A stretch of DNA of 64,000 nucleotides from Acidimicrobiia bacterium (GCA_021296315.1 JAGWAO010000023.1:19855-83854); one strand, 5' to 3'. Positions 5,745-59,204 are shown, numbered from the stretch's first letter. Numbers and translations: made by a program. The notes: a model not told the origin generated them from the sequence alone.

Positions 5745-5835
5745 CCCCCGAGCCGAGCAGCCGCCCACGGCGTCGGTACGATCGGGAGCCAGTGGCCCGA
5801 GCGGCCCGTGAGCGAAGCGAGCAGGAGCGGATGAC
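5745..5835 (+). mobile_element. GAGCG-rich MITE-like repeat, copy A (left half and core only)
   Basis: GTGGCCCGAGCGGCCCGTGAGCGAAGCGAGCAGGAGCGG (5792-5830) matches the core of copies B-E. Weaker similarity extends upstream to about 5745. The copy ends at the uvrB ATG. Confidence 0.6.
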
Positions 5836-7890
<2,055 letters not shown>

Positions 7891-19377: not shown

Positions 19378-21990
19378 GTGGAGCGAGCCGTGGCCGCGCC
19401 CCGGGTCGGTGTCGACGTCGGCGGCACGTTCACCGACGTCGCCCTCGAGCGCGCTGACGGGACGTTCGCGTCCATCAAGGTGCTCACCACTCACCAGCGG
19501 CCCGAGGAGGGGATTCTCGCGGGAGTCTCGTCCGTCGCCGACCGCGAGCGCGTTCAAATGGACGAGATTGCGCAGATCATCCACGGCACCACCCTGGCCA
19601 CCAACGCCCTGATAGAGCGCCGCGGCGCCAAGACGGCGCTGGTGACTACCACCGGGTTCCGCGACGTGATCGAGACCCGCACCGAGAGCCGTTTCGAGCA
19701 GTACGACCTGAACATCGTGCTGCCCGCGCCCCTGATCGAGCGCAAGGACCGCTTCGTGGTGCCGGAGAGGATCGGCGCCCGCGGCGAAGTCCTGCTGCCC
19801 TTCGACGAGCGGGCCGCCCGCGAGGTTGTCGCCCGGCTGGTGGACGGCGGATACGAGTCGGTGGCCGTCGGGTTCATGCACAGCTACCGGAACCCGGATC
19901 ACGAGCGCCGCTTCCGGGAGCTGCTGCTCGATGCCGCCCCGTCGGTCGCCGTGTCACTGAGCTGCGAGGTCTCGCCGCAGATGCGCGAGTTCGAAAGGTT
20001 CAACACGGTCTGCGCCAACTCCTACGTTCAGCCGCTGATCGCTACGTACCTGCGGCGACTGGAATCGGAACTGCAGCGCATGGGTGCGATGTGCCCACTG
20101 CTGCTGATCCACTCCGGCGGAGGCCTGATCAGCAGCGACGCGGCGGCCTCGTTCCCCGTGCGCCTCGTCGAGTCGGGCCCGGCCGGGGGAGCGATCTTCG
20201 CGGCGCACCTGGCCCGGGCCCATCGCCGCGACCGGATCGTCTCCTACGACATGGGGGGAACCACCGCGAAGATCGCGCTGATAGAGGACGGCTCGCCCCG
20301 CACGGCCAAGACCTTCGAGACGGCCCGAACCGCCCGCTTCAAGAAGGGCAGCGGGATGCCCATCTCGGTCCCGGCCATCGAGATGATCGAGATCGGCGCG
20401 GGCGGCGGGTCCATAGCGACCGTCGACGCGCTCGGCCAGATACGGGTGGGGCCTCAGAGCGCCGGCGCCGATCCCGGTCCCGCGTGTTACGACCTCGGCG
20501 GGAGGACTGCGACCGTGACCGACGCCAACGTGCGCCTCGGCCGGCTGCACCCGGAGAACTTTCTTGCGCCGGACATCTCGCTGTCACCGGAGTTGGCGAC
20601 CAGCGCCCTCCGCGACTCAGTGGGCATGCCCCTGGGCCTTGACAACGATGGCGCCGCGGTGGGGGTGGCCGAGGTGGTCGACGAGAACATGGCCAACGCG
20701 GCCCGAACCCACGCGGTGGAGAGCGGCAAGGACCTTGCCGGCTACTCGATGGTCGCCTTCGGAGGGGCCGCTCCGCTGCACGCTTGCCACCTGATCGACA
20801 AGCTGGGCATCGACGAGGTGCTGGTGCCGGTCGGCGCGGGCGTCGGCTCAGCCATCGGGTTCCTGCTGGCGCCGTTCTCCTACGAGGCCACCCGCAGCTT
20901 CTACACCACGTCCGACCGCTTCGACACCGGCGGCGTCCGGGCGCTGCTTGCGGAGCTGGCCGCGGAGGCTGAGGCGTTTGTCCGGATGGGCACCGCGGAG
21001 GCGGTGACCGTCGAGCGCGAGGTGCTCATGCGATACCGCGGCCAGGGCTGGGAGATCCCGGTGGCGCTGCCCCACGGCGACTTCGACGAGATCGCAGCGG
21101 GGGAGCTCACCACCACTTTCGTGAAGGCCTACGAGGCATTCTTCGGGCGGGCAATCGAGGGCCTCACCATCGAGGCGGTGAGCTGGTCGGTGCGGGTGTC
21201 CTCGCGGCGCGAGGCGCCGACAGCGATAGAGCCCCTACCGGCGGGCCAGCCCCCGGCAATCGCGGGCACCCGGCTGGTGTACGACCCGGCCGCGGGCAGG
21301 AAGGTGGCCGCCGCTCTGTTCGAGCGGGCTGCCCTCGCCGCCGGTGACACCGTCAACGGCCCGGCGCTGATCACCGAGGACCAGACCACGACGGTGGTCG
21401 GGTCCCAGCACACTGCTGTTGTCCAGCCCGACCTGACCTTGAGGATCACCGGGACGGGCCGGCCGGGCGGCGGTTGGCCGGCAGCGGGCGCGCAGCAACG
21501 CGACGCCGAGCCGGCACGCCCTGCTCGGCCCGTCGGCGTCCCCGCACTGGCACCGGGACCGCGATGCCGGGACGGCAGGCCGCGACGACCCGATGCAGCC
21601 AGCTCCGCAAGCCATCAGGTTCCCGGACGGAGCCGGGACCGCGAGCCATGGGGTCCCGATGCAGATCATGTGGAACCGCCTGATATCGGTAGTCGAGGAG
21701 CAGGCGCTGACCCTGGTGCGGACCGCCTTCTCTACGTCGGTGCGGGAGGCTGGCGATTTGTCGGCTGGAGTGTTCGATCGCAGGGGCCGCCTGATCGCCC
21801 AGGCCGTCACCGGAACGCCGGGCCATGTCAACACCATGGCCGCGTCCCTGGGCCACTTCATCAACGAGATCGGGGCCGAGAGCATGTGCCCCGGCGATGT
21901 GTATCTCACCAACGACCCTTGGAAGGGCACCGGCCACCTCCACGACATCACCGTGGCCACGCCGGTGTTCACCCGAGGCCGAGCGGATAG
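19378..21990 (+). CDS. hyuA: Hydantoinase/oxoprolinase A subunit; no stop codon at the expected C-terminus (about 21455), so the ORF runs on to 21990
   Basis: N-terminal RVGVDVGGTFTDV signature. Homology-like sequence ends at ...GPALITEDQTTTVVGSQHTAVVQPDLTLRI. The following ~180 codons are Pro/Arg/Gly-rich and overlap hyuB. The start is GTG 19378 or ATG 19342. Confidence 0.8.
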   Translation: MERAVAAPRVGVDVGGTFTDVALERADGTFASIKVLTTHQRPEEGILAGVSSVADRERVQMDEIAQIIHGTTLATNALIERRGAKTALVTTTGFRDVIETRTESRFEQYDLNIVLPAPLIERKDRFVVPERIGARGEVLLPFDERAAREVVARLVDGGYESVAVGFMHSYRNPDHERRFRELLLDAAPSVAVSLSCEVSPQMREFERFNTVCANSYVQPLIATYLRRLESELQRMGAMCPLLLIHSGGGLISSDAAASFPVRLVESGPAGGAIFAAHLARAHRRDRIVSYDMGGTTAKIALIEDGSPRTAKTFETARTARFKKGSGMPISVPAIEMIEIGAGGGSIATVDALGQIRVGPQSAGADPGPACYDLGGRTATVTDANVRLGRLHPENFLAPDISLSPELATSALRDSVGMPLGLDNDGAAVGVAEVVDENMANAARTHAVESGKDLAGYSMVAFGGAAPLHACHLIDKLGIDEVLVPVGAGVGSAIGFLLAPFSYEATRSFYTTSDRFDTGGVRALLAELAAEAEAFVRMGTAEAVTVEREVLMRYRGQGWEIPVALPHGDFDEIAAGELTTTFVKAYEAFFGRAIEGLTIEAVSWSVRVSSRREAPTAIEPLPAGQPPAIAGTRLVYDPAAGRKVAAALFERAALAAGDTVNGPALITEDQTTTVVGSQHTAVVQPDLTLRITGTGRPGGGWPAAGAQQRDAEPARPARPVGVPALAPGPRCRDGRPRRPDAASSASHQVPGRSRDREPWGPDADHVEPPDIGSRGAGADPGADRLLYVGAGGWRFVGWSVRSQGPPDRPGRHRNAGPCQHHGRVPGPLHQRDRGREHVPRRCVSHQRPLEGHRPPPRHHRGHAGVHPRPSG

Positions 21991-23404
21991 GCGAGCGAGT
22001 CCGGCTCATACGGGTGAGGCCGCGGCCCGAGCGGCCCGAGAGGCCAGCGAACAAGAGCGGGAGACACCCCCTGGCAACGCGACGGGCTCGCACCTACCCG
22101 CGCACGCTCTCGGCGATCACTCGGATGAACCCAAAGATCTCATCGGCTTCTTCGCGTCGACCGCGCACGTGGTCGACATCGGCGGCCGCGGCTTCGGTCC
22201 CGACGCCCGCGAGCTGTACGAGGAAGGCATCCGCATCCCGATCATGAGATGGGCCGAACGGGGACGGCTCAACCGGGATCTGGTCGACATCGTGCGCGCC
22301 AATGTGAGGGAGCCCGACCAGGTGATCGGCGACATCCACGGGCTGGCCGCCTCCAACGAAACCGGTCGCCGGCGGCTGCTCGACATGCTGGGGGAATTCG
22401 GCCTGACCGACCTCGAGGAGTTGGCCGGCTTCGTGTTCGACCGCACACGGCGAGCAACCCTCGACGCGCTGGAGAGGGTCCCCAACGGCGTCTACCGCAA
22501 CACGATGCGGGTAGACGGGTACGGCGATCCGGTCACTCTGGCCGCGGCGGTGACCGTCTCCGATGACGGCATGCACGCCGACTTCACGGGCACGTCGCCG
22601 GTGAGCCCGTTCGGCATCAACGTTCCGATCACCTATGCGCAGGCGTACTTCACCTACGGGATGCTGGTGGCGCTGGCTCCAGAGCTGCCCAACAACTACG
22701 CCTCCCTGCTGCCCTTCACGGTGAGCGCTCCACCCGGTGCGATCCTCAACGCGGTGGAGCCCGACCCGGTGGCCGTGCGCCACGTGATCGGCCACTTCGT
22801 GACCGATCTGTGCCTGGGAGCGATCGCCCCGGCACTGCCCGACATCGTTCCGGCCGAGGGTTCCGGAGCGCTGTGGAACTTCCAGGCCAGCGCCCGCAGC
22901 GCCGATCCCGGGGACCCGCGGCCGCCGGTGGAGATGCTGATGTTCAACAGCGGCGGCAGCGGCGCCCGGCCCGGCCGCGACGGGCTCACCGCCACCGCCT
23001 TCCCGTCGGGTGTGAGGACCATGAGCGTCGAGGCCACCGAGCAGGTCGGCCCGATCGTGGTGTGGCGCAAGGAGATGCGACCGGACAGCGGCGGAGCGGG
23101 CCGGTTCCGGGGCGGCTTGGGTCAGGTGATCGAGATCGCCCCGGCCGACGGGTACCTGTTCGAGTTCTCGGCCATGTTCGACCGGGTCGACAACCCGGCC
23201 CGGGGCCGGGCGGGCGGCCTCGACGGCACGGTTGGCGGGGTGCGCCTCGACGACGGCACACCGTTCGGGTCCAAGGGCAAGCAGACCGTGCCTGCGGGCC
23301 GGCGGCTCATCCTGGAGCTACCCGGCGGCGGGGGATTCGGCGACCCGGCGGAGCGCGACCCGGCCGCGGCCGCCAACGACCTGGCCCAGGGCTACGTGAC
23401 TTGA
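21593..23404 (+). CDS. hyuB: Hydantoinase B/oxoprolinase subunit carrying an in-frame repeat-element insertion
   Basis: HyuB-like N-terminus (MWNRLISVVEEQALTLVRTAFS), DPWKGTGHLHDITVATPVF, then about 46 foreign codons, then LIGFFASTAHVVDIGG and the rest of the family-typical sequence. Confidence 0.85.
   Translation: MQPAPQAIRFPDGAGTASHGVPMQIMWNRLISVVEEQALTLVRTAFSTSVREAGDLSAGVFDRRGRLIAQAVTGTPGHVNTMAASLGHFINEIGAESMCPGDVYLTNDPWKGTGHLHDITVATPVFTRGRADRRASPAHTGEAAARAAREASEQERETPPGNATGSHLPAHALGDHSDEPKDLIGFFASTAHVVDIGGRGFGPDARELYEEGIRIPIMRWAERGRLNRDLVDIVRANVREPDQVIGDIHGLAASNETGRRRLLDMLGEFGLTDLEELAGFVFDRTRRATLDALERVPNGVYRNTMRVDGYGDPVTLAAAVTVSDDGMHADFTGTSPVSPFGINVPITYAQAYFTYGMLVALAPELPNNYASLLPFTVSAPPGAILNAVEPDPVAVRHVIGHFVTDLCLGAIAPALPDIVPAEGSGALWNFQASARSADPGDPRPPVEMLMFNSGGSGARPGRDGLTATAFPSGVRTMSVEATEQVGPIVVWRKEMRPDSGGAGRFRGGLGQVIEIAPADGYLFEFSAMFDRVDNPARGRAGGLDGTVGGVRLDDGTPFGSKGKQTVPAGRRLILELPGGGGFGDPAERDPAAAANDLAQGYVT
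21975..22112 (+). mobile_element. GAGCG-rich MITE-like repeat, copy B (inside the hyuB coding sequence, 138 bp)
   Basis: GAGGCCGAGCGGATAGGCGAGCG...CATACGGGTGAGGCCGCGGCCCGAGCGGCCCGAGAGGCCAGCGAACAAGAGCGGGAG...CACCTACCCGCGCACGCTCT is colinear with copies C, D and E. Confidence 0.85.
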
Positions 23405-34647: not shown

Positions 34648-35007
34648 GTGCGCTGGGACGCGGACCAGGTGGATGCGCAGATCGTCACCGGTGAGCACAT
34701 GCATCTCATCCGGGCCGTCTACGAGCCGGGTGCGGCCTACGAGATGCACAGCCATCCCTACGAGCAGTTCAGCCTGCTGCTGTCGGGACGCCTGCTGCTG
34801 ACGGTCGGCGACGAGACCCGCGAGATCGGGCCGGGCGACGGCTGGTACGCGCCCGCCGACGTGCCCCACGGGGGCGCGGTCCTCGGCGACGAGCCGGCGG
34901 TGTTCATCGACGTGTACTCCCCGGCGACGGCCTGGATCCTTGACGTGTTCGCGCAGGGAAGGCCGATTCCGGCTGGCGAGCGAGCCGGGACGGAGTCGCA
35001 GGATTGA
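34648..35007 (+). CDS. Cupin-domain protein
   Basis: Cupin motifs AYEMHSHPYEQFSLLLSG and GWYAPADVPHGG. GTG 34648 is the first start codon in the open frame. Confidence 0.7.
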   Translation: MRWDADQVDAQIVTGEHMHLIRAVYEPGAAYEMHSHPYEQFSLLLSGRLLLTVGDETREIGPGDGWYAPADVPHGGAVLGDEPAVFIDVYSPATAWILDVFAQGRPIPAGERAGTESQD

Positions 35008-35924
35008 CCATGGAGAACACGTTCGGCCCCGGTGCAGACCGTTCCGACCTCGCGGCCGCGGTGGCCCGCGACGGCTACGCAGTGGTGCGCAGCGCCGTCG
35101 ACGCCGACACTCTCGCCGCGGTCGCTACCGATCTCCAGCCGTACCTCGACGCCGCCCACACCGGCCACGAGGAGTTCATGGGCAGCCTCACCAAGCGGTT
35201 CGGCGCGCTCGTCGCGAAGTCGACCGCCGTTCAGGCGCTGATCATGCATCCCACCGTGCTCGCAGTCGCCGATCACGCCCTGCTGCCGAGCTGCGCGGCG
35301 TACCAGCTCCACTACACCGGCGTGATGCACCTCGAGCCGGGCGAGAAGCAGCAGGTGCTGCACCGCGACACTTCGGTGTATCCCTTCGCCAACCCGTGCC
35401 CCCCGCTGACAGTGGCCACCATGTGGGCGGTCACCGACTTCACCCGGCAGAACGGCGGCACCAGGATCTGCCCTGGCAGCCACCAGTGGACCAGTGACCG
35501 CGCGCCGGCACGTGACGACGTGATCGCCACCGAGATGCCAGCGGGCTCGGTGCTGATCTACCTGGGCAACGTGATCCACGGCGGCGGGTCGAACCGCTCG
35601 GACAACGCCCGCACGGGCGTGGCGTTGCACTATTCCCTGGGTTGGCTGCGCCAGGAGGAGAACCAGTACCTGGCTGTCACCCAGGAGCAGGCGCGGACCA
35701 TGCCCGACGAGCTCCAGGAGCTGATGGGGTACTCGCTCGGCTCGTCCAACCTCGGCTTCGTCGACCACGTAGCGCCCAAGGACTACCTCCACGGAGTTCG
35801 CGATCCATCCGAGAGCAACCTCAGCCCCACGGGGATGAGCGAGCGGGTCGATGGGCTGCAGCGCTTCCACGTCAGCCACACCGCCCGAGGCCTGGCCCGT
35901 CACTACGACATCGACACCGACTGA
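35004..35924 (+). CDS. Phytanoyl-CoA dioxygenase (PhyH) family protein, paralog 1
   Basis: 306 aa with the Fe(II)/2OG facial triad context (VLHRDTS ... VIHGGGSN). The conserved GWLRQEENQYL block is shared with the paralog at 50599..51561. Confidence 0.8.
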   Translation: MTMENTFGPGADRSDLAAAVARDGYAVVRSAVDADTLAAVATDLQPYLDAAHTGHEEFMGSLTKRFGALVAKSTAVQALIMHPTVLAVADHALLPSCAAYQLHYTGVMHLEPGEKQQVLHRDTSVYPFANPCPPLTVATMWAVTDFTRQNGGTRICPGSHQWTSDRAPARDDVIATEMPAGSVLIYLGNVIHGGGSNRSDNARTGVALHYSLGWLRQEENQYLAVTQEQARTMPDELQELMGYSLGSSNLGFVDHVAPKDYLHGVRDPSESNLSPTGMSERVDGLQRFHVSHTARGLARHYDIDTD

Positions 35925-36061
35925 GAGGCCGAGCGAACAGGCGAGCGGATCCGGCCTCATACGGGCGAGGCCGTGGCCCGAGCGGCCCGTGAGCGCAGCG
36001 AACAAGAGCGGGAAGGACAACGCTGTGACACCACGGATTCTCACCTGTTCGCGGACGCTCT
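35925..36061 (+). mobile_element. GAGCG-rich MITE-like repeat, copy C (137 bp)
   Basis: It starts immediately after the PhyH stop. The arms GCGAACAGG (left) and CCTGTTCGC (right) are complementary. The core is GTGGCCCGAGCGGCCCGTGAGCGCAGCGAACAAGAGCGGGAAG. Confidence 0.85.
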
Positions 36062-36119
36062 GAAGCCTCCGGGCGCCTCCGATAGAGTCGAACACGGAGA
36101 AGTACCCAAGAGGAGGACT

Positions 36120-36404
36120 ATGCGACGCTTCGTCATCGAACGGGACATCCCAGACATCGGCTCGGCCGAGCGCGAACAGCTGCGGGCCGCAGCCGGACAA
36201 TCCAACTCGGTCCTGCAGGCCATGCAGTCCGAGGGCAAGCCCATCCAGTGGGAGCACAGCTACGTGGCCGGCGACAAGACCTTCTGCATCTACGTCTGCG
36301 ACGATCCGGAGCTGATCGACGAGCACGCCGAGCGCAGCGGGTTCCCCGCGACAGTGGTCACCGAGGTGAGAAGGATCATCGATCCCACCACCGAGAAGGG
36401 CTAG
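36120..36404 (+). CDS. DUF4242-like small protein
   Basis: ATG 36120 is preceded by AGGAGGA. MRRFVIERDIPDIGSAEREQLRAAA... (94 aa). The upstream part of the listed ORF is repeat-element sequence. Confidence 0.65.
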   Translation: MRRFVIERDIPDIGSAEREQLRAAAGQSNSVLQAMQSEGKPIQWEHSYVAGDKTFCIYVCDDPELIDEHAERSGFPATVVTEVRRIIDPTTEKG

Positions 36405-36417
36405 CCGCGGAGCAACC

Positions 36418-36948
36418 ATGGCACGCATCGACTTCGGTGACGGCGAGGGGCTCGAGCGCATCCGGATGTGGAGCCTCCAGCCCGACGTGGGCATGGCCAT
36501 GGGGGCCGCGGCCAAGACGCTGTACACCAAGATCTCCCTGGATGTGCGGGTCCGTGAGATCGCCCGCATGCGGGTGGCCCAGATCAACCGGTGCCACATT
36601 TGAATTGACACCCGGTCTGCATCGGCGATGCAGCAAGGACTCGAAGAGGACCTGTACCACCGCGTCTCCGAGTACGCCGACATCGGCGCGTTCAGCGAGG
36701 CCGAGAAGCTGGCGGCCGAGACCGCCGAGCGGTTCTGCTGGGACCACGAGGCCATGATGAGCGACGAGGACTACTGGGCCCGCATGAAGGAGCACTTCAC
36801 CGACCAGCAGATCCTCGAGTTGGTGACGTTGATCGGCTACTGCGTGGCCATGGGACGGACAATGGCCATCCTGGACATCGCCAACGACTGCGCCATCAAC
36901 CAGACCCCCGACCCCACCGAGGACCCGTCCCGCTACATCCACGGCTGA
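36418..36948 (+). CDS. Carboxymuconolactone decarboxylase (CMD/AhpD-like) family protein with an in-frame TGA at 36601-36603 (selenocysteine candidate or pseudogene)
   Basis: ORFs 36418..36603 and 36628..36948 are in the same frame and separated only by this TGA. The joined sequence RVAQINRCHI-[TGA]-IDTRSASA aligns with the family motif RVxQINGCxxCxDxH, placing TGA at the second Cys. A hairpin lies at 36617-36633. Confidence 0.6.
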
Positions 36949-37035
36949 GCTGACCCGGTGGGGCGGCGATGTCGCCCATCTCGCTTGATCGGTGCCGATT
37001 GGCGCTGTTCTACCTAGATTGGTATATTGGTACCT

Positions 37036-37278
37036 ATGGTTCTGAGCATCAAGAGCGCTATGGCAGACCAGCTAGCCCGAGAGCTGGCCGACCTCACGGG
37101 GGAGTCCATCACCGATGCGGTCGTGGCGTCGCTGCGGGCACGCCTCGACCTGGAGCGCCGACGTCAGCGCGACCGCACCCTGGACGACATCATCGAGCGC
37201 TTCCAGCGGTTGCCGATGATCGATGGCCGCAGTCCCGAAGACATCATCGGCTATGACCAGCACGGCCTGCCATCGTGA
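37036..37278 (+). CDS. vapB: VapB-type antitoxin (Rv0623-like family)
   Basis: MVLSIKSAMADQLARELADLTGESITDAVVASL... is typical of this antitoxin family. TATATT at 37023-37028 and tandem TTGGTA repeats lie just upstream. Its stop overlaps the vapC GTG. Confidence 0.75.
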   Translation: MVLSIKSAMADQLARELADLTGESITDAVVASLRARLDLERRRQRDRTLDDIIERFQRLPMIDGRSPEDIIGYDQHGLPS

Positions 37279-37661
37279 ATGTGGTTGACTCGTCCGCGAT
37301 AGTTGCCGTGCTGTTCGGTGAGCCCGGCGGCAAGGACATAGAACGCAAGCTCGTGAGTTCGCCCTGCACCATGTCGGCTGTGACGCATGTCGAGCTCGGG
37401 ATCGTCGTCGAGGCGAGAGCAGGCCCTGCGGGAGCCCAGTTGCTTGAAGAGCTCCTTGCTCGCATCGCGATCAGGATCGAGCCGGTCGATGAGGGCCTTG
37501 CAGGCGAGGCGATCGTGTGCTGGCGCCGGTTCGGCAGGGGCAGGCATCCCGCTGGACTCAACTTCGGCGACACGTTCTCCTATGCGCTCGCTCGCCGAAT
37601 GGGCGTTCCGCTGCTGTTCGTGGGCAATGACTTCTCTCAGACCGACGTTCTCGTCTCCTGA
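37275..37661 (+). CDS. vapC: PIN-domain toxin VapC
   Basis: VVDSSAIVAVLFGEP ... THVELGIV ... NFGDTFSYALA ... FVGNDF: the PIN acidic residues are intact. 128 aa. Confidence 0.85.
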   Translation: MNVVDSSAIVAVLFGEPGGKDIERKLVSSPCTMSAVTHVELGIVVEARAGPAGAQLLEELLARIAIRIEPVDEGLAGEAIVCWRRFGRGRHPAGLNFGDTFSYALARRMGVPLLFVGNDFSQTDVLVS

Positions 37662-47933: not shown

Positions 47934-47981
47934 CGAATTGGCAGCGTGTAGCGCCGAAACGGGACCCGTCAGCTGCCAATT
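47934..47981. repeat. REP-like hairpin, GAAYTGGCAGC family, copy 1
   Basis: GAATTGGCAGC, a 26-nt loop, then GCTGCCAATTC. The 11-bp stem is perfect. Confidence 0.7.
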
Positions 47982-48039
47982 CACTCCTCGCGGTCATCTG
48001 CTCGGGGCAAGTGATCGAAGCGCACTAGCGTCAAGAGCC

Positions 48040-49764
48040 ATGTTCGACCTGCTCATCGCCGGCGGCGATGTGATCGACGGCCGGGGCGGGCCCCGGCGCC
48101 GGGCCGACATCGGCATCGCCGGGGACCGGATCTCGGCCATCGGCAGCCTGGTCGACGGGGGAGCGGAAGCCGCGGCCACCATCGACGCCGCCGGGCTGGT
48201 GGTGACGCCCGGGTTCATCGACGTGCACACCCATCTCGACGCCCAGGTGTTCTGGGACCCGAACCTGTCACCGTCACCGCTTCACGGTGTGACCACCGTC
48301 ATCGGCGGCAACTGCGGGTTCACCATCGCCCCTCTGGGGGACGACCCAGCCCACGGCGACTACCTGATGCGGATGCTGGCCCGGGTGGAGGGCATCCCCC
48401 TGGAGGCGCTTCAGCAGGGCGTGCCCTGGAGTTGGAAGACCACCGCTGAGTACTTCGACGCCATCGACGGCAACGTGGCCGTCAACGCTGGCTTCAAGGT
48501 CGGCCACTCCGCCTTGCGCCGGGTGGTGATGGGCGACGACAGCGTGCGCCGGACCAGCACCGGCAACGAGCTAGAGGCGATGAAGGCGCTGCTGCGCGAC
48601 GGTCTGGAGGCCGGGGCGCTGGGCTTTTCGTCGTCGTGGTCGCGCACCCACAACGACCCCATGGGCAACATGGTGCCCAGCCGCTGCGCGGAGCGCGACG
48701 AGCTAGTGGCGCTGTGCTCGGTGCTGGCCGACTTCGACGGGACGTCGGTCGAATTCATCCCGGCGCTGGGGCCGTTCGAGGACTGGGCCGTGGAGCTGAT
48801 GACCGACATGTCGACCGCGGCCCGCAGCCCGCTCAACTGGAACGTCATGACGGTCACGGCCCGGTCCATGGAGATGAACCGGGCCAAGCTGACCGCTGGC
48901 GACTTCGCCGCGGCCCGAGGGGGCAAGGTGGTGGCCCTGACCGTGCCGCTGATGCTGTCGCTGCACCTGAACTTCAACAGCGGGTTCGTGCTCGACGCCC
49001 TGCCGGGCTGGGAGGAGGTGATGCTGCTGCCCAAGGAGGACAAGCGCCGCGTCCTGGCCGACCCGGCCGAGCGGCGCCGGCTGAACGAGCTGGCCCAGGG
49101 CGACCATCCGCTGCGGGGGCTGGCCCATTGGGCGCGCAAGGTGGTGTTCCACTCACCCGCTCCCGAGAACAAGGGCTGCGCGGGCCGCACGGTGGGGGAG
49201 ATCGCGGAGGAGCGGGGCCAGGATCCCTGGGACGCACTGTGCGACATGGCCCTGGCCGACGATCTGGAAACGTCGTTCGGCAATCCGGCCCTGCCCGAGC
49301 CGACCGCCGACTGGGAGGCCAGGGTCGAGATCTGGCGCGACCCGCGCGCTGTGATCGGCGCGTCCGATGCCGGTGCGCACCTCGATCTCTTCTTGACCGC
49401 CAACTACGCCACCACCATGCTGAACGAGGCTGTCGTGAAGCGGGGGCTCATCTCCCTGGAGGAGGCCGTGCACCTGCTCACCGAGGTGCAAGCCGACCTG
49501 TACGGCCTGGTCGACAGGGGAGTGCTGGCCGAGGGCGCCTACGCCGATGTTGTGGTGCTGGACGAGGTCACCATCGGCTCAGGGCCAACGACGTTCCGCT
49601 CCGATCTGCCGGCGGGAGCCTCCCGCCTCTATGCCGAAGCCACGGGCATCGAACACGTGATCTGCAACGGCGCTGAGATCGTGCGCAGTGGCCGGTTCAC
49701 TGGCGCCCGGCCCGGCACGCTGCTGCGCTCGGGCACCCACACCGCCGGCCCCAGCCTCGACTAG
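48040..49764 (+). CDS. N-acyl-D-amino-acid deacylase (D-aminoacylase) family amidohydrolase
   Basis: From ATG 48040: MFDLLIAGGDVIDGRG...TPGFIDVHTHLD...VIGGNCG. 574 aa. Confidence 0.8.
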   Translation: MFDLLIAGGDVIDGRGGPRRRADIGIAGDRISAIGSLVDGGAEAAATIDAAGLVVTPGFIDVHTHLDAQVFWDPNLSPSPLHGVTTVIGGNCGFTIAPLGDDPAHGDYLMRMLARVEGIPLEALQQGVPWSWKTTAEYFDAIDGNVAVNAGFKVGHSALRRVVMGDDSVRRTSTGNELEAMKALLRDGLEAGALGFSSSWSRTHNDPMGNMVPSRCAERDELVALCSVLADFDGTSVEFIPALGPFEDWAVELMTDMSTAARSPLNWNVMTVTARSMEMNRAKLTAGDFAAARGGKVVALTVPLMLSLHLNFNSGFVLDALPGWEEVMLLPKEDKRRVLADPAERRRLNELAQGDHPLRGLAHWARKVVFHSPAPENKGCAGRTVGEIAEERGQDPWDALCDMALADDLETSFGNPALPEPTADWEARVEIWRDPRAVIGASDAGAHLDLFLTANYATTMLNEAVVKRGLISLEEAVHLLTEVQADLYGLVDRGVLAEGAYADVVVLDEVTIGSGPTTFRSDLPAGASRLYAEATGIEHVICNGAEIVRSGRFTGARPGTLLRSGTHTAGPSLD

Positions 49765-49891
49765 TGGGCTGTCCACCAACGTTCGTCGGGGTCGTGTCGG
49801 GAATCTCGGTGCGAGTTTCCTGGATATGCCACACATTTTTCTCCCGAGTTCAGTAGGAGCCGCGCGCGCCAAGGTTCGTGGACGCCCACTA
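49761..49891. mobile_element. 131-bp element bounded by ~25-bp terminal inverted repeats and CTAG at both ends (MITE-like)
   Basis: The left end is CTAGTGGGCTGTCCACCAACGTTCG. The reverse complement of the right end is CTAGTGGGC-GTCCACGAACCTTGGCG (21 of 25 positions match). The centre is AT-richer. The left CTAG contains the aminoacylase stop codon. Confidence 0.55.
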
Positions 49892-49935
49892 GCTCGGGCC
49901 GAGCCCCGCAAGTTGCTCTCGGGTCGGGTGACTTC

Positions 49936-50340
49936 TCAGGCCGGGTCGGGCATCTCGGCGGTGCCGTAGCCCGAGTCGACCACTCCCTCGGTGAAGAACG
50001 CCTCCCACATGACGCCGTCGGGGTCGGCGACCCACGACTTGTGCTGGAGCTGGTAGCCGCACACCAGATCGTCCTGGTCGGCGCGGGCCATGCCCTCGTT
50101 GTCGATGTGCTCCCGGAGCTGCTCGAGTTCGGGGTGAGATTCGACCTGGATGCCGTAGTGGGCCGAGCCCGGAAACCCGCAGCCGTGGGTGTCGAGTGAG
50201 AAGTTCACCCGCGGGTCGTCCAGCATCCACTTGGCGTAGTCGGGGCGCCGCAAGGTGGGCTCCACGCCGAACAGCCGGCTGTAGAACTCGATCGACTCTT
50301 CCAGGTCGTCGACCTGCAATCCGATGTGCATCCGCCGCAT
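49936..50340 (-). CDS. VOC-superfamily metalloenzyme (ArsI/CadI-like glyoxalase fold)
   Basis: MHIGLQVDDLEESIEFYSRLFGVEPTLRRPDYAKWMLDDPRVNFSL is a family-typical N-terminus. 134 aa. Confidence 0.75.
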   Translation of the reverse strand: MRRMHIGLQVDDLEESIEFYSRLFGVEPTLRRPDYAKWMLDDPRVNFSLDTHGCGFPGSAHYGIQVESHPELEQLREHIDNEGMARADQDDLVCGYQLQHKSWVADPDGVMWEAFFTEGVVDSGYGTAEMPDPA

Positions 50341-50388
50341 AACTCGTCACCTGCCTCCAGTAGGCCTTTCGTGAACAGTAGCGGCCGA

Positions 50389-50435
50389 GAACTGGCAGCG
50401 AAATGCACGCCATGCGAGCACAACGCTGCCAGTTC
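50389..50435. repeat. REP-like hairpin, GAAYTGGCAGC family, copy 2 (loop inverted relative to copies 3 and 4)
   Basis: GAACTGGCAGC, a 25-nt loop, then GCTGCCAGTTC. Both arms carry the C/G variant, so pairing is preserved. Confidence 0.7.
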
Positions 50436-50440
50436 CGTTG

Positions 50441-50589
50441 GAGGCCGAGCGGGTAGGCGAGCGAACTCGGTCCATACGGGCGAGGCTGTGGGCTGGGTTG
50501 CTGGTCTGGGAGGCCCGTGAGCGCAGCGAACAAGAGCGGGAAGTACCCCGCCCGGACGCGACGGGTCTGCACCTACCCGCGCACGCTCT
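50441..50589 (+). mobile_element. GAGCG-rich MITE-like repeat, copy D (149 bp)
   Basis: GAGGCCGAGCGGGTAGGCGAGCG...CATACGGGCGAGGC...CCCGTGAGCGCAGCGAACAAGAGCGGGAAG...CACCTACCCGCGCACGCTCT. It ends 10 nt from the PhyH-2 stop. Confidence 0.85.
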
Positions 50590-50598
50590 TTGTCGCGC

Positions 50599-51561
50599 CT
50601 AGTCGGCGATGTCGGAGACGAAGCGGCGAGCGTCGGTGTTGTTCTCGGCGACCTGGCCGATGGTCCTGGCCTTGGCCGTGCCTCCCCGCAGCGCGGCCAG
50701 CGGATCGGTCTGGTCGCCCACGTATCCGAGAGCGAAAGCGCCCTGGGTGTAGCCCATCATGCGCAACAGGTCGTCGTCGAGGGTTCGGGCGATCTCCGGC
50801 GGGCAGGCCAGGTACTGGTTCTCCTCCTGACGCACCCAACCCACCGCGTAGGTGATGTTGACGCCACGCCGGACGCCAGTGGAAGTGTTGGCTCCGGCGC
50901 CGTGGAGCACCTTGCCCTCGTAGAAGAGCACGCTTCCACGACGCATCTGAGCCTGGGCGCCAGCCACCGCCTGAGCCGCCTCGTCGTCGGTACCGGACGT
51001 GCCGGGCAGGATCCAGGTCGCCCCGTTGTCGGCGGTGAAGTCGGTCAGCGCCCACATGGTGTTGCACTGAACGTGATAATCGACGCCGAAGTCGAAGAAG
51101 TCGAAGGCCATCTCGTCGCGGTGGAGCTTCTGGGCGGTCTCGCCCGGCTCGACCGAGATGATCTGGGTGAGGTGCAACTGCACCGCGCTGGCATGGCCGA
51201 GGAAGTGGCTCACCGCCTCCACGACGAGGGGGTGCATCACCAGCGGGCGCACCGACGGGCAGCGGGCCACCAGCGCTCCGGTGCGGCGGGTGAGTCGGCC
51301 GTCATAGGTGTCGCGACCGACGGCCGACGCCTCGATGTGAGGCATGGCCTCGGCCTCCAGCCGGTCCAGCAGCCCCTGGTCGGCCACGTCGTCCACGATG
51401 GCGTAGCCGACGCGACGCAGATGGTCGCTCACCTCGACCGGATCGACATGGGACGCGAAGTGATGCAAGCCCACGCCGGCATGGTAGGGCCACCCAGCCA
51501 ACGCCACCCCAATCCGAGATCGGTGCGAGAATCGTGCCCCCAGGGACAGTTTCATCATCAA
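50599..51561 (-). CDS. Phytanoyl-CoA dioxygenase (PhyH) family protein, paralog 2
   Basis: KLHRDEM ... VLHGAGAN ... GWVRQEENQYL. The start could instead be GTG 51474. Confidence 0.8.
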   Translation of the reverse strand: MMMKLSLGARFSHRSRIGVALAGWPYHAGVGLHHFASHVDPVEVSDHLRRVGYAIVDDVADQGLLDRLEAEAMPHIEASAVGRDTYDGRLTRRTGALVARCPSVRPLVMHPLVVEAVSHFLGHASAVQLHLTQIISVEPGETAQKLHRDEMAFDFFDFGVDYHVQCNTMWALTDFTADNGATWILPGTSGTDDEAAQAVAGAQAQMRRGSVLFYEGKVLHGAGANTSTGVRRGVNITYAVGWVRQEENQYLACPPEIARTLDDDLLRMMGYTQGAFALGYVGDQTDPLAALRGGTAKARTIGQVAENNTDARRFVSDIAD

Positions 51562-51593
51562 CTTGGCGGGAGGCGCCGTCTAGCCTCGACCGC

Positions 51594-56338: not shown

Positions 56339-56530
56339 AGAACGTGCGCGGGTAGGTGATGGCGCCTCGCCATGCGGCGGCGCCATTCCCGCTCTTGTTC
56401 GCTGCGCTCACGGGCCGCTCGGGCCGTGTCTCCCGCTCTTTTTCGTTGCGCTCACGGGCCGCTCGGGCCCGCGGCCTCGCTGAGGGTCCCGCCAATACCC
56501 TCATGAATCGCCGCCTATCCGCTCGGCCTC
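56339..56530 (-). mobile_element. GAGCG-rich MITE-like repeat, copy E (192 bp, core tandemly duplicated)
   Basis: The reverse complement reads GAGGCCGAGCGGATAGGCGGCG...[GGCCCGAGCGGCCCGTGAGCGCAACGAAAAAGAGCGGGA]GACAC[GGCCCGAGCGGCCCGTGAGCGCAGCGAACAAGAGCGGGA]...CACCTACCCGCGCACGTTCT. The 39-nt units lie at 56387-56425 and 56431-56469. Confidence 0.85.
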
Positions 56531-57361: not shown

Positions 57362-57437
57362 ATACCGCGTATCAACGCCGTCGCGCTGACCAATCTGCCG
57401 ACCAGTCTTCCGTGCCTCCTGGCTGCCGCCTGTCCGG

Positions 57438-59204
57438 TCAGCCTCCGAGCAAGCCCTCGGGAACTTCCACCACCCGGGCCCGGAGCCATTCACCGAGGCT
57501 CTTGGCCTGCGCGTCCTGGCGGTCCGAGGCGGCTACCCCGTCGCCGAGCAGGCCGTGGATCACGAAGTTGAGAGACCAGATGTTTCCGAGCCGGTGCCGG
57601 TCCACCCGCAGCGGTGCCGCCTCCGGCAGCAGCTCGCGCAGACGCTCCGTGCTCAGGAAGCCGTCAAGCCACTCGAAGGCATCGGCGGAGCGGGCGAAGA
57701 CACCCAGGTTGGCGTTTCCGCCCTTGTCCCCCGAGCGGGTGCCGACAACCCGGCCCAGCGGCGCTGGCACCGTGGAGCCCCAGTCCCGGCCCTCGGCGGC
57801 AGGGGTGGGGGAGGGAATCGGCGACGCCGGCGCGGCCGCGGCCGGCACCGGATCGACGACGGTGCGCTCGCCGTCGAGGAAGGTCACGTACTGGGGCACG
57901 GCCTCGGCCGGCACGGTGGCCGGCCGGTAGATGCCGAAGGCCCGTCCCCGGGCTGCGGAGCCCGCCGAGAACATTCCCGGGATGGTGGCCAGGGCCAACT
58001 CGTTCATGGCGTCCGACAGGGTGCGCCCGAGCCGGTCCTCGTCGTGGTCGAACACGATGAGCCGCCACACCGCGACGGCCTCCTCGTTGGTGGCCGGATC
58101 GCTCTTGTCGGTGCGCACCACCCGCTCGGTGACTTTGGCGTAATCGCCCGGGTCGTGGGGGCAGGCCCGCCAGAAGGCGTCGTGCACCAGGGCCGCCTTG
58201 GCCTCGATGTCGAGTCCGGTGAGAGCGACGTTGATCTCGCTGCGGAAGCCGCCCAGCTCGTTGGTGGCCACCTTGAGTGTGGGCGGGGGTGGCTCGCCCC
58301 GCACCGAGTCCATCCTCACCCGGTCGACACCGGTCTGGGCGAGCCGGATGGTGTCGAAGCGGGTGGTCACGTCGGGGCCCAGATAGCCGGGCGCGTCGAT
58401 CTCGTAGAGCAGCTGCGCGGTGACCGTCCCAACCGTGACCGCACCGCCGGTGCCGTCGTGTTTGCCGATCACCGAGGAGCCGTCGGCCGCGATCTCGGCC
58501 CACGGGAAGCCGGTGCGGGCCATGCCCTCCACCTCGGTGAAGAACGAATAGTTGCCGCCCGTCGCCTGGGTGCCGCACTCGATCACGTGCCCGGCTGCCA
58601 CCGCGCCGGCTAGGGCGTCCCAGTCGTCGATGGCCCAGCCGTGGTGCCAGGCCGCGGGACCGCATGCCACCGCCGCGTCGGTGACCCGCCCCGTCACCAC
58701 GATGTCGGCGCCGCGGCGGAGGGCCTCCGCTATGCCCCAGCCCCCCAGGTAGGCGTTGGCGGTGATCAGCTTCGACGTGTCGGTCATGGGCTCGCCGGTG
58801 GCGAACGACCGGAGCGTCACCGCGTCGGCCGCGTCGGCGGCGAGGCGCGCCATGAGGTCGTCGCCCTCCACGCAAGCGATCCTCGGGTCCAGACGCAATC
58901 GCTCGGCCACCTCGGCGACCGCCTGCGCGCAGCCGCGGGGATCGAGCCCGCCCGCGTTGGACACCACCTTGATGCCCCCGTCCAGACAAGTGCCCATCAC
59001 CTGCTCCATCTGCTTGACGAAGCTGCGGGCGTACCCGCCGCCGGGTCGTCTGGAACGGGTGCGAGCCAGTATCAGCATGGTCAGCTCGGCCAGCCAGTCC
59101 CCCGTGAGGACATCGATGGACCCGCCGTTCACCATCTCGGCCGCAGCCGACAGCCGGTCGCCGTAGAAGCCGGAGCAGTTGGCGATCCGGATCGGCTCAG
59201 CCAC
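57438..59204 (-). CDS. atuA: AtuA-like acyclic terpene utilisation protein (DUF1446)
   Basis: MAEPIRIANCSGFYGDRLSAAAEMV...IDVLTGDWLAELTM is the DUF1446 N-terminal signature. The GTG overlaps the carboxylase alpha stop (GTGGCTGA). Confidence 0.75.
   Translation of the reverse strand: MAEPIRIANCSGFYGDRLSAAAEMVNGGSIDVLTGDWLAELTMLILARTRSRRPGGGYARSFVKQMEQVMGTCLDGGIKVVSNAGGLDPRGCAQAVAEVAERLRLDPRIACVEGDDLMARLAADAADAVTLRSFATGEPMTDTSKLITANAYLGGWGIAEALRRGADIVVTGRVTDAAVACGPAAWHHGWAIDDWDALAGAVAAGHVIECGTQATGGNYSFFTEVEGMARTGFPWAEIAADGSSVIGKHDGTGGAVTVGTVTAQLLYEIDAPGYLGPDVTTRFDTIRLAQTGVDRVRMDSVRGEPPPPTLKVATNELGGFRSEINVALTGLDIEAKAALVHDAFWRACPHDPGDYAKVTERVVRTDKSDPATNEEAVAVWRLIVFDHDEDRLGRTLSDAMNELALATIPGMFSAGSAARGRAFGIYRPATVPAEAVPQYVTFLDGERTVVDPVPAAAAPASPIPSPTPAAEGRDWGSTVPAPLGRVVGTRSGDKGGNANLGVFARSADAFEWLDGFLSTERLRELLPEAAPLRVDRHRLGNIWSLNFVIHGLLGDGVAASDRQDAQAKSLGEWLRARVVEVPEGLLGG

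What the first reader, a model, noticed from the sequence alone, without database searches (positions are those of the whole stretch)
35925..36061. GAGCG-rich ~140-bp repeat family (5 copies in 64 kb) with within-copy co-variation of its two arms
Copies lie at 5745-5835 (partial), 21975-22112, 35925-36061, 50441-50589 and 56339-56530 (reverse). All share the layout GAGGCCGA-[arm]-CGAGCG...CATACGGGCGAGGCC...GGCCCGAGCGGCCCGTGAGCGCAGCGAACAAGAGCGGGA...[arm']-GCGCACGCTCT. The 9-nt arms are complementary within each copy but differ between copies. In copy D they are GCGGGTAGG and CCTACCCGC. In copy C they are GCGAACAGG and CCTGTTCGC, so three positions changed on both sides. Copies B and E have GCGGATAGG opposite CCTACCCGC, which gives a G-U pair only on the reverse-strand transcript. 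This concerted change implies selection for, or a copying mechanism that maintains, a long-range stem enclosing ~100 nt rich in GAGCG(G) motifs. No transposase, RAYT or integrase gene is in the window. The family behaves like a MITE/MIRU-type element or a structured RNA.
Basis: seen in the sequence. Interest (0 to 1): 0.75.

Follow-up and report, generated by a model that had tools for sequence, protein, structure and literature searches.

The report
Miniature IS5-type transposon repeat family
The repeats are copies of a small non-coding mobile element (a MITE) that borrows the ends of a 970-bp IS5-family insertion sequence found in related sponge-associated Acidimicrobiia, so its matching "arms" are transposase recognition ends rather than an RNA stem: an ordinary kind of selfish DNA, although this family seems not to have been described.

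Summary
The repeat family is real. The window holds four full copies, one degenerate copy and perhaps one remnant. A scan of public genomes found more than 116 loci, all in Acidimicrobiia MAGs, mostly sponge symbionts (Ca. Aldehydirespirator, Ca. Poriferisodalis).

It is a type II MITE. Its roughly 20-nt ends match the left and right inverted repeats of a ~958-975-bp IS5-family insertion sequence (18/19 and 17/19 bases). That IS has one 280-aa DDE transposase and lies in the same genomes. It carries a 3-bp TNA target duplication, perfect in 15 of 16 copies. The focal window copy has TGA|…|TGA.

A hyuB orthologue at 93% identity has an empty site, so the element inserts. In the window that copy sits in frame (46 codons).

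Family-wide arm covariation is weak: 76.3% of cells paired against 74.7% in shuffles. RNAalifold finds no compensatory pairs and Rfam has no match. The IS lineages themselves change both inverted repeats in concert, which explains matched arms that differ between copies.

Two things remain unexplained. The central 49 nt is 93-98% conserved against about 70% elsewhere. Between co-directional genes, 38 copies are sense and 9 antisense.

It is a new member of a known kind and of modest interest.

The parts
35925..36060 (+). Copy C, the focal copy. A full-length type-1 MITE of 136 nt lying between a PhyH-like ORF (34944-35924) and the next + strand gene.
   Evidence: It begins right after the stop codon of ORF 35004..35924.
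35922..35924 (+). 5' copy of the 3-bp target-site duplication TGA of copy C. It also serves as the stop codon of the upstream gene.
   Evidence: The IS partner makes TNA duplications.
36061..36063 (+). 3' copy of the target-site duplication TGA of copy C.
35925..35947 (+). 5' terminal inverted repeat of copy C, GAGGCCGAGCGAACAGGCGAGCG.
   Evidence: The consensus 5' end matches the IS left inverted repeat GAGGCCGCGCGGATAGGCG at 18/19.
36038..36060 (+). 3' terminal inverted repeat of copy C, TTCTCACCTGTTCGCGGACGCTC. It contains the arm' at 36044-36052.
   Evidence: The consensus 3' end CACCTATCCGCGCACGCTC matches the IS right inverted repeat CACCTATCCGCTGACGCTC at 17/19.
35965..36013 (+). Conserved 49-nt core, GCGAGGCCGTGGCCCGAGCGGCCCGTGAGCGCAGCGAACAAGAGCGGGA. 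It is unrelated to the interior of the IS.
   Evidence: The core is 98% conserved, and still 93% in the copies that failed the search pattern, against about 70% for the rest of the element. It has no match inside the IS.
21975..22110 (+). Copy B, a full-length type-1 MITE inserted in frame in hyuB (ORF 21593..23404). It adds 46 codons in a variable loop.
   Evidence: The PDB alignment is contiguous in the homologue, 809 to 810, across the insert. The insert is present only in the window and in P0001, and absent from 9 other orthologues. The empty site is in L117.
50441..50588 (+). Copy D, a full-length 148-nt MITE with extra sequence before the core. It lies between two - strand genes, so it is antisense to them.
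56340..56530 (-). Copy E, a type-2 MITE whose core unit is duplicated in tandem with a 44-nt period (56389-56425 and 56433-56469). The upstream gene reads 27 nt into the element and stops at an internal TGA (56501-56503).
   Evidence: (family D17).
5749..5836 (+). Copy A, a degenerate copy with a decayed 5' end, an intact core (5794-5830) and no 3' half. The 3' end of the core supplies the AGGAG Shine-Dalgarno sequence and the spacer for the uvrB start at 5837.
   Evidence: The orthologous locus L007 has three tandem core units upstream of the same uvrB start.
57427..57445 (-). Possible solo 5'-TIR remnant, GAGGCTGACCGGACAGGCG, at the stop of ORF 57438-59297. Low confidence.

Best explanation
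The repeats are copies of a non-autonomous transposable element: a type II MITE of about 136-150 bp with shorter and longer variants. It carries only the two terminal inverted repeats of a ~958-975-bp IS5-family insertion sequence that lives in related Acidimicrobiia genomes.

Inferred mechanism. The IS's DDE transposase binds the roughly 20-bp ends of the MITE in trans, excises or copies the element, and inserts it at TNA (often CTNAG-like) sites, duplicating the three bases. In a 68-70% G+C genome such sites are mostly stop codons. This would explain why copies so often sit exactly at the end of a gene, and only rarely inside one.

They match within a copy because both ends must fit one transposase. 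They differ between copies because IS and MITE lineages have diverged, with both ends changing together, and old immobile copies then decay by transitions.

Shown here:
- the identity of the ends with the IS;
- the TNA duplication;
- the empty site;
- concerted change of both inverted repeats among IS lineages;
- weak RNA-type covariation.

Inferred:
- mobilisation in trans;
- the stop-codon explanation for placement;
- the idea that arm variants track transposase specificity.
For: The partner IS.
- L097:7094-7934(-) encodes a 280-aa protein with DUF4096 (1.7e-12) and DDE_Tnp_1 (1.6e-10).
- It scores 139.9 bits on NCBIfam NF033580 'IS5 family transposase', above the cut-off of 110.
- Its homologues are named IS5 family transposase in Ca. 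Poriferisodalis.
- Sixteen complete copies were fetched. They are 958-975 bp long with a single ORF. The TNA duplication (TAA or TTA) is perfect in 15 of 16; L262 has TAA against TTA.

The ends.
- The MITE 5' end matches the IS left repeat at 18/19 and the 3' end matches the right repeat at 17/19.
- BLAST similarity is confined to about 20-22 nt at each terminus.

Co-occurrence.
- IS and MITE lie in the same genomes: OZ220724.1 (L097, L027), OZ220472.1 (L114, L243-245) and OZ242344.1 (L043, L239).

Target duplication of the MITE.
- Copy C has TGA/TGA.
- Of 12 copies with TNA on both sides, 7 are identical against 3 expected.

Insertion polymorphism.
- The hyuB copy is present in the window and in L118 and absent from the 93%-identical P0002/L117 and 8 other orthologues.

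Derivatives.
- A 69-bp element has near-perfect 19-bp inverted repeats differing only at the R position (L049:6189-6258), and a ~55-nt one lies at L111:7756.

Placement.
- The stop codon of the upstream gene overlaps or abuts the 5' end in 18 of 46 copies.

Concerted change of both inverted repeats among IS lineages.
- The inner box is GCGGATAGG, GC-CAATAGG, GCGGATTGG or GCGGATTGA at both ends (one mismatch at position 5 in the GCGGATTGG lineage, L251).
- MITE L109 carries the GCGGATTGA/TCAATCCGC variant.
Against: - No IS copy lies in the window. None was seen among the top 120 transposase clusters for the closest genomes (Ca. Aldehydirespirator), so mobilisation in this lineage may be extinct or may depend on an IS not sampled here.
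- No IS was found whose ends carry copy C's GAACAGG/CCTGTTC variant.
- Most MITE copies have imperfect or no recognisable duplications. That is expected for old copies, but it weakens the duplication statistics.
- Plain MITE biology does not explain two features: the interior core is far better conserved than the ends, and the element is strongly co-oriented with flanking genes, 38 to 9, p = 2.5e-5.
- A small pairing-specific excess of arm complementarity remains.
Confidence: 0.88

Rival explanations
1. The element is a structured RNA, either a cis-regulatory element or a small RNA. Its long-range terminal stem is kept by compensatory evolution, and the GAGCG-rich interior is the functional part.
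For: - The terminal stem forms in the minimum-free-energy folds of all three window copies tested, on both strands.
- There is a modest, partner-specific excess of complementary arm states, and 4/500 shuffles reach the observed number of cells changed on both sides.
- The orientation is strongly biased to the sense strand of flanking genes.
- The core is highly conserved.
Against: - Pairing is 76.3% against 74.7% in shuffles, and 38% of cells at pair 13-129 are unpaired.
- RNAalifold does not predict the stem. Its covariation term is -0.13 and it finds 0 compensatory pairs.
- The strongest mutual-information pairs are non-canonical and reflect subfamily structure.
- Fold z-scores are only -0.01 to -3.05.
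- G.T and A.C mismatches are balanced, 23 to 28.
- Rfam has no hit at gathering threshold or at E up to 10, and there is no promoter or terminator.
- The same ends occur on a protein-coding IS, where they are inverted repeats.
Confidence: 0.05
2. It is a MITE whose conserved 49-nt core has been taken over by the host. The core would act in the sense orientation, for example as a 5'-UTR or ribosome-binding module, an RNA-processing or stability signal, or a protein-binding site, and the element spreads that motif among operons. This adds to the best explanation rather than replacing it.
For: - The core is 93-98% conserved against about 70% for the rest, even in copies that failed the core search pattern.
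- Alignment columns 43-61, which lie outside the search pattern, are nearly invariant.
- Core-only copies survive after both ends have decayed (window A, L007, L014, L021).
- At uvrB the core supplies the AGGAG sequence and the spacer before the start codon in two species.
- Sense orientation outnumbers antisense 38 to 9.
- GAGCGG-N5/6-GAGCG direct repeats recur at about one helical turn (sequence reading).
Against: - No function was tested.
- The conservation could come from gene conversion among copies, or from recent spread of one master interior.
- The orientation bias could reflect replication-linked insertion, or selection against the antisense orientation only.
- The in-frame copy B has a decayed core, with 4 changes in 28 nt.
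- The tandem expansion of the unit (43-46 nt) looks like slippage rather than selection.
Confidence: 0.2
3. It is a REP/REPIN-type element moved as single-stranded DNA by a RAYT or IS200/IS605-type HUH transposase. Hairpin arms would then be kept by selection on DNA structure, and the orientation bias would come from insertion into the lagging-strand template.
For: - The arms can form a hairpin, and the orientation is biased.
- In the window the element's strand flips where GC skew and gene orientation flip, at about 50 kb.
Against: - The ends equal the inverted repeats of a DDE (IS5-family) element that makes 3-bp duplications. IS200/IS605 elements have neither inverted repeats nor duplications (established knowledge).
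- Only the roughly 20-nt termini are inverted repeats, and the interior is not palindromic.
- No RAYT gene was seen in the window or the loci, though this was not searched exhaustively.
Confidence: 0.02
4. The similarity comes from local segmental duplication within this 64-kb region and not from a dispersed family.
For: None beyond the regular spacing of about 14 kb between copies B, C and D.
Against:
- The flanks of the window copies are unrelated.
Confidence: 0

Closest known systems
Prokaryotic type II MITEs, which share only their terminal inverted repeats with an autonomous IS (definition in PMC10969869)
   Same: - It is small (about 55-190 bp) and has no gene of its own.
- It has imperfect terminal inverted repeats of about 20 bp.
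- It makes the same 3-bp target duplication as its IS.
- It is multicopy and dispersed, with deletion and tandem variants.
- Similarity to the IS is confined to the ends.
   Different: - The interior is better conserved than the ends.
- The orientation is strongly biased relative to flanking genes.
- The core unit expands in tandem, up to 7 units in L009.
IS5-family insertion sequences with a single ORF and a 3-bp target, given as features of the IS1031 group in PMC2516522; this is the autonomous partner
   Same: - The partner IS has DUF4096 and DDE_Tnp_1 domains and scores above cut-off on NCBIfam NF033580.
- It is about 970 bp with a single ORF.
- It makes 3-bp TNA duplications.
- Its termini start with GAG.
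   Different: - The window element has no transposase and shares only the ends.
- The subgroup (IS1031 or IS427) was not formally determined, because ISfinder was not available.
Rickettsia palindromic elements (RPEs), as reviewed in PMC10969869
   Same: Copy B is a ~140-bp repeat inserted in frame in a metabolic gene (hyuB). The gene stays open in two species, even though the element changed length between them.
   Different: - An in-frame location is the exception here: one independent case among about 137 copies, whereas it is the rule for RPEs.
- RPEs have no identified IS partner.
Mycobacterial interspersed repetitive units (MIRU/VNTR); comparison from my own knowledge
   Same: - Both occur in actinobacterial intergenic regions within operons.
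- Both are oriented with transcription.
- Both show tandem copy-number variation of a ~40-50-nt unit between orthologous loci: 1 against 3 units at uvrB and 1 against 2 in hyuB.
- In both, the unit overlaps the stop and start signals of flanking genes.
   Different: - MIRUs lack terminal inverted repeats, target duplications and an IS partner.
- Here the tandem unit is only the core of a MITE.
REPINs with their RAYT transposases; comparison from my own knowledge
   Same: Both are short dispersed repeats whose two arms can pair, and compensatory arm changes have been reported for REPINs.
   Different: - Here the arms are DDE-transposon inverted repeats with TNA duplications.
- The interior is not palindromic.
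- No RAYT gene was seen.

Membership tests
MITE (prokaryotic, type II) | Short and non-coding (no transposase gene) | tested here: met
   Full copies are 136-191 nt, and variants range from about 55 nt to arrays of about 400 nt. No element-specific ORF was found.
MITE (prokaryotic, type II) | Terminal inverted repeats | tested here: met
   The two ends are roughly 18-24-nt imperfect inverted repeats. The terminal stem is 76% paired over 19 positions in 29 copies. The mini-element L049:6189-6258 has near-perfect 19-bp repeats that differ only at the R position.
MITE (prokaryotic, type II) | Target-site duplication of the same kind as the parent IS | tested here: met
   The IS has a perfect TNA duplication in 15 of 16 copies. 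Window copy C has TGA/TGA. Seven of 12 MITE copies with TNA on both sides are identical against 3 expected. Many older copies are degenerate.
MITE (prokaryotic, type II) | Ends shared with an autonomous IS in the same or related genomes; interior unrelated | tested here: met
   The ends match at 18/19 and 17/19, and BLAST matches are limited to the termini. IS and MITE co-occur in OZ220724.1, OZ220472.1 and OZ242344.1.
MITE (prokaryotic, type II) | Evidence of insertion (occupied against empty orthologous sites) | tested here: met
   The hyuB site is occupied in the window and in L118, and empty in L117 and 8 other orthologues.
MITE (prokaryotic, type II) | Mobilisation in trans by the cognate transposase | not testable with these tools
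   This needs a transposition assay, or comparison of very close strains.
IS5 family (the partner IS, not the window element itself) | DDE transposase of the IS4/IS5 type | tested here: met
   Pfam gives DUF4096 and DDE_Tnp_1. NCBIfam NF033580 scores 139.9 bits against a cut-off of 110.
IS5 family, IS1031-like group | Single ORF, about 0.9-1 kb, 3-bp target duplication | tested here: met
   The copies are 958-975 bp with one ORF of 280 aa and TNA duplications. The features are as stated for the IS1031 group in PMC2516522. Formal ISfinder placement was not done.
Structured RNA family | Match to a curated RNA family | tested here: not met
   There were 0 hits at gathering score in the whole window. 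Only two chance-level hits (E about 6) fell on the element.
Structured RNA family | Base pairs supported by compensatory changes beyond what relatedness gives | tested here: inconclusive
   The excess is small and within the range the tool reports for unconstrained related sequences. RNAalifold finds none. The same pattern is expected for co-evolving inverted repeats.
REPIN/RAYT | Pairs of REP hairpins and a cognate RAYT (HUH) gene; no inverted-repeat or duplication signature | tested here: not met
   The element has DDE-type inverted repeats and TNA duplications, and its interior is not palindromic. No exhaustive search for a RAYT gene was made.
RPE-like in-frame repeat | Preferential in-frame insertion in protein-coding genes | tested here: not met
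   Only hyuB, one event shared by two genomes, among about 137 copies. One other apparent case (L057) lies in a spurious antisense ORF.

The most novel reading that the evidence does not exclude
The MITE is a vehicle for a functional 49-nt module. The core, nearly invariant across species, would act in the sense orientation, for example as a leader or ribosome-binding cassette, an RNA-processing or stability signal, or a binding site for a host protein. Selection would therefore keep it in more than 100 loci per genome after the transposon ends have decayed. That would make this a transposon-distributed regulatory network in an uncultured sponge symbiont.
Probability: 0.15. Interest if true: 0.55.

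Novelty: new member of a known kind. Interest (0 to 1): 0.3.

Why it matters
- It replaces an attractive but unsupported reading (a covarying structured RNA) with a documented one: a MITE and its IS5-family partner. It also shows how concerted change of both inverted repeats can mimic RNA covariation, a useful caution for repeat-based RNA discovery.
- The family is abundant, at about one copy per 13 kb in the window, and appears confined to sponge-associated Acidimicrobiia. It matters for annotating and assembling these MAGs: gene ends, false N-terminal extensions, and one 46-codon insert in hyuB.
- It may help as a lineage marker. I found no description of it in the literature searched.
- The conserved core and the orientation bias are a small open question about the domestication of MITE interiors.

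Tried and rejected
- **Transposase between end pairs.** I looked for a transposase between inverted pairs of the 5' end within 4 kb in the 956 kb of loci. Only ordinary genes lay between them (an SDR and an acyltransferase), so these are two separate MITEs. The IS was found later from a solo 3'-type end in L097.
- **Metagenome scan.** I scanned with the arm-specific pattern GAGGCCGAGCGRRCAGG to enlarge the covariation sample. Of 120 hits, 118 were chance matches in unrelated G+C-rich metagenomes and only 2 were real elements.
- **Rfam.** There were no hits at gathering threshold and only chance-level hits at the permissive one.
- **Promoter and terminator scan** around copy C found nothing.
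- **All-against-all mutual information** on 29 copies: the top pairs are non-canonical and reflect subfamilies, not a structure.
- **In-frame insertions elsewhere.** Only hyuB qualified. The L057 case was rejected because the ORF is a spurious antisense frame.
- **Exact target site in hyuB.** The boundaries are blurred by divergence of the loop and by a secondary deletion in L118.
- **Replication against transcription** as the cause of the orientation bias could not be separated with 8-kb loci, so I did not pursue it.
- **An IS with copy C's GAACAGG/CCTGTTC ends** was not found among the 16 IS copies fetched.

Full report

Yes.
- A degenerate core pattern matches 6 times against 0.00 expected.
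- The 5'-end pattern matches 5 times (0.38 expected) and the 3'-end pattern 4 times (0.10 expected).

The coordinates need small corrections. Defining the element as GAGG…CTC:

| Copy | Coordinates | Notes |
|---|---|---|
| A | about 5749-5836 | degenerate: decayed 5' end, intact core, no 3' half |
| B | 21975-22110 | in hyuB |
| C | 35925-36060 | focal copy |
| D | 50441-50588 | |
| E | 56340-56530 (- strand) | core unit duplicated in tandem, 44-nt period (family D17) |

A solo end-like fragment may lie at 57427-57445(-).

**2. How widespread is it?**

All are from Acidimicrobiia MAGs: Ca. Aldehydirespirator, Ca. Poriferisodalis, Microthrixaceae, and sponge-derived 'SB06xx' bins. This is a lineage-wide dispersed family and not a local duplication.

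The family is modular.
- The distance from the 5' end to the core comes in classes of about 31, 35, 58 (window B and C; D is a longer variant) and 69 nt (window E).
- Some copies keep only the core.
- Some are tandem arrays of the 43-46-nt core unit: 7 units in L009 and 3 in L007 and L074.
- Some are mini-elements that keep only the two ends: L049:6189-6258 (69 bp, near-perfect 19-bp inverted repeats that differ only at the R position) and L111:7756.

**3. The decisive result: an autonomous partner.**

In L097, a solo sequence resembling the MITE 3' end lay next to an ORF. That ORF (L097:7094-7934, - strand) encodes a 280-aa protein.
- Pfam finds DUF4096 and DDE_Tnp_1.
- NCBIfam NF033580 'IS5 family transposase' scores 139.9 bits against a cut-off of 110.
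- Homologues are annotated as IS5 family transposase in Ca. Poriferisodalis. Many occur on ~960-980-bp contigs, as expected for a repeated IS.

I fetched sixteen complete copies from several genomes. They are 958-975 bp long with a single ORF. A 3-bp TNA duplication (TAA or TTA) is perfect in 15 of the 16.

| | Left / 5' end | Right / 3' end |
|---|---|---|
| IS | GAGGCCGCGCGGATAGGCG… | …CACCTATCCGCTGACGCTC |
| MITE consensus | GAGGCCGAGCGGATAGGCG… | …CACCTATCCGCGCACGCTC |
| Identity | 18/19 | 17/19 |

The ends are arranged in the same relative order in both. BLAST of the MITE consensus against the IS copies finds similarity only in the terminal 20-22 nt. By the definition in PMC10969869 this makes it a type II MITE. 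IS and MITE occur in the same genomes. PMC2516522 gives a single ORF and a three-nucleotide target as features of the IS1031 group of the IS5 family. I did not place the IS formally.

**4. Signs that the MITE inserts like the IS.**

- Copy C is flanked by TGA|…|TGA, and the left TGA is the stop codon of the upstream gene.
- Across the family the flanks read (C)T(N)A|GAGG…CTC|T(N)A(G). Of 12 copies with TNA on both sides, 7 carry the identical triplet against 3 expected. Most copies are older and degenerate.
- In 18 of 46 copies with a co-oriented upstream gene, that gene's stop codon overlaps or abuts the 5' end. This fits a TNA target in a genome where such triplets are mostly stop codons; that link is my inference.
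- In copy E the upstream gene reads 27 nt into the element before it stops.

**5. Copy B sits inside a gene.**

The 603-aa ORF 21593..23404 is HyuB (hydantoinase B/oxoprolinase).
- Against the solved N-methylhydantoinase 7hk5, residues 21-129 align to 703-809 and residues 182-603 align to 810-1247. The homologue is therefore contiguous where the window protein has extra residues.
- In an alignment with ten close orthologues, the extra segment occurs only in the window and in P0001 (Ca. Aldehydirespirator OZ244832.1). It is absent from P0002 (93% identical over the alignment) and the others.
- The DNA shows an empty site in L117 (GTGTTC|CAGCCC…).
- In L118 an orthologous copy has gained a second core unit and lost its 3' end, yet it still reads in frame.

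So this is a single insertion into a variable loop. It is kept open in two species, adds 46 codons in the window, and is RPE-like. It is also the exception: a screen of about 137 copies found no other convincing in-frame case.

**6. Testing the covariation claim.**

*Twenty-nine aligned type-1 copies, 19-pair terminal stem.*

| Measure | Observed | Shuffled | Shuffles reaching observed |
|---|---|---|---|
| Cells paired | 76.3% | 74.7% | 7/500 |
| Cells changed on both sides | 19 | 11.4 ± 2.7 | 4/500 |
| Covariation score | 0.188 | 0.166 | 11/500 |

- The tool's own documentation says related, unconstrained sequences often reach such values.
Pair 13-129, for example, has GC 12, AU 6 and other 11.
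- RNAalifold does not recover the terminal stem, gives a covariation term of -0.13 kcal/mol and finds no compensatory pair.
- The strongest mutual-information pairs are non-canonical and mark subfamilies.

*Forty-three copies of both types.*
- Fifteen match perfectly at the three variable positions against 7.7 ± 2.2 by permutation (P = 0.001).
- The association is specific to pairing partners: odds ratios are 2.6, 3.3 and 4.2 on the diagonal, and 1 or less for 5 of the 6 off-diagonal cells (one is 2.4).
- So there is a real but modest tendency for the two arms to carry matching states.
- G.T and A.C mismatches are balanced, 23 to 28, so neither strand is favoured as RNA.

**7. Why matched arms differ between copies.**

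The IS lineages themselves show concerted changes of both inverted repeats.

| Loci | Inner box at the two ends |
|---|---|
| L239, L246, L252 | GCGGATAGG / CCTATCCGC |
| L240-245, L259-261 | GC-CAATAGG / CCTATTG-GC (two adjacent positions changed on both sides) |
| L251 | GCGGATTGG / CCAACCCGC (concerted at position 7; mismatch at position 5) |
| L263 | GCGGATTGAT at both ends |

- MITE L109 carries the L263-type GCGGATTGA/TCAATCCGC arms.
- Uncompensated states also occur in an IS: L262 has GCGAATAGG against CCTATCCGC, the same combination as MITEs L031 and L055.
- The IS left repeat is more uniform than its right repeat, which mirrors the 5' > 3' conservation of the MITE ends.

The simplest reading is this. 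Both ends are binding sites for one transposase, so lineages change both ends together. Immobile copies then decay, mainly by transitions. In the reverse-complement arrangement such concerted change looks like base-pair covariation. That arm variants track transposase specificity is my inference. No IS with copy C's GAACAGG/CCTGTTC ends was found.

**8. What remains unexplained.**

*(a) The core is too well conserved.* The central 49 nt (GCGAGGCCGTGGCCCGAGCGGCCCGTGAGCGCAGCGAACAAGAGCGGGA) is far better conserved than the rest of the element.
- It is 98% conserved in copies found through the core.
- It is still 93% conserved in nine copies found only through their 5' end that failed the core pattern.
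- The other interior segments and the 3' end are about 68-74% conserved.
- Columns 43-61 of alignment A3, outside the search pattern, are nearly invariant.

*(b) The orientation is biased.* Between co-directional genes the element lies in the sense orientation 38 times and antisense 9 times (binomial p = 2.5e-5). Gene strands were inferred from third-position G+C, which is a heuristic. In the window, A-D are on + and E is on -. Gene orientation and cumulative GC skew flip near 50 kb, and D is antisense to its neighbours. Transcription and replication could not be separated as causes.

*(c) One case of co-option.* At uvrB the 3' end of the core provides the AGGAG sequence and the spacer before the start codon, both in the window (copy A) and in another species (L007, three tandem units).

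These points allow, but do not show, a host-level role for the core. Gene conversion and slippage are alternatives.

**9. Comparison with known systems, and verdict.**

- The element works like, and passes the testable criteria for, a type II MITE of an IS5-family IS (see the membership table).
- It resembles RPEs only in the single hyuB case.
- It resembles MIRUs in its tandem unit, its operon location and its orientation.
- It differs from REPINs in having DDE-type ends and target duplications.

Searches of the literature held here found no description of this family or of repeats in these taxa. This does not prove that none exists. It is a new member of a known kind.

The MITE alternative is right. 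The RNA-stem inference is not supported.

Noticed in passing
window 47935-47982, 50389-50435, 61306-61352, 61377-61423; also L040:177-294, L050:4340-4460, L069:2259-2376: A second, unrelated repeat family of ~47-nt hairpins, GAAYTGGCAGC-N25-GCTGCCARTTC, with an 11-12-bp stem. They often occur as two copies 71 nt apart in intergenic DNA. One copy directly abuts MITE copy D. They look like REP elements or protein-binding palindromes.
   Followed up: partly
window 35965-36013, and the same segment in all copies: The 49-nt interior core of the MITE is 93-98% conserved across species, while the rest of the element, including the 3' end, is about 70% conserved. This holds even in copies not ascertained through the core. 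No mechanism was established.
   Followed up: partly
window 5794-5839; L007:4310-4440: The uvrB start codon (5837) is preceded by an AGGAG Shine-Dalgarno sequence and a spacer that belong to the MITE core. The orthologous locus in another species has three tandem core units before the same start. This suggests co-option as a leader, together with copy-number variation.
   Followed up: partly
window 59600-59725: An 18-nt tandem repeat (about 7 units of GCCTCGACCACGTCCGAA-like sequence, or 6 codons each) lies inside the - strand ORF 59197-61350 (family D1).
   Followed up: no
window about 48000-52000: Cumulative GC skew peaks here, and gene orientation switches from mostly + to mostly -. This may be a replication terminus or an inversion boundary.
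   Followed up: no
window 19342-21990 and 21593-23404: The mechanical hyuA ORF runs on in another frame over the start of hyuB until a stop inside MITE copy B. High-G+C run-on frames and MITE-derived open frames inflate ORF calls here. One example is the 665-aa antisense ORF 34758..36755, which spans copy C.
   Followed up: partly
L057 (reverse strand, about 3330-3490): One copy lacks the 3' end and is flanked by a 20-bp direct repeat, CATCAGCC[G/A]GCTCCCTCATC. This suggests a different route of duplication or insertion.
   Followed up: no
L096:7072-7250: A MITE core is split by a lower-G+C insert of about 85 nt, flanked by an 8-bp duplication, CCCGTGAG. This looks like another small mobile element nested in the MITE.
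   Followed up: no
L243, L251, L263 (IS copies); L012, L033 (MITE copies): Copies of the IS and of the MITE repeatedly abut the same sequence, TAAGCCTGGATCCACCGGTG…, the end of another IS that encodes a DDE_Tnp_1_4 transposase. This suggests a preferred target at that element's terminus.
   Followed up: no
window 37027-37661: Two small adjacent + strand ORFs (83 aa and 128 aa) look like a VapB/VapC-type antitoxin and PIN-toxin pair, judged from their sequences only.
   Followed up: no
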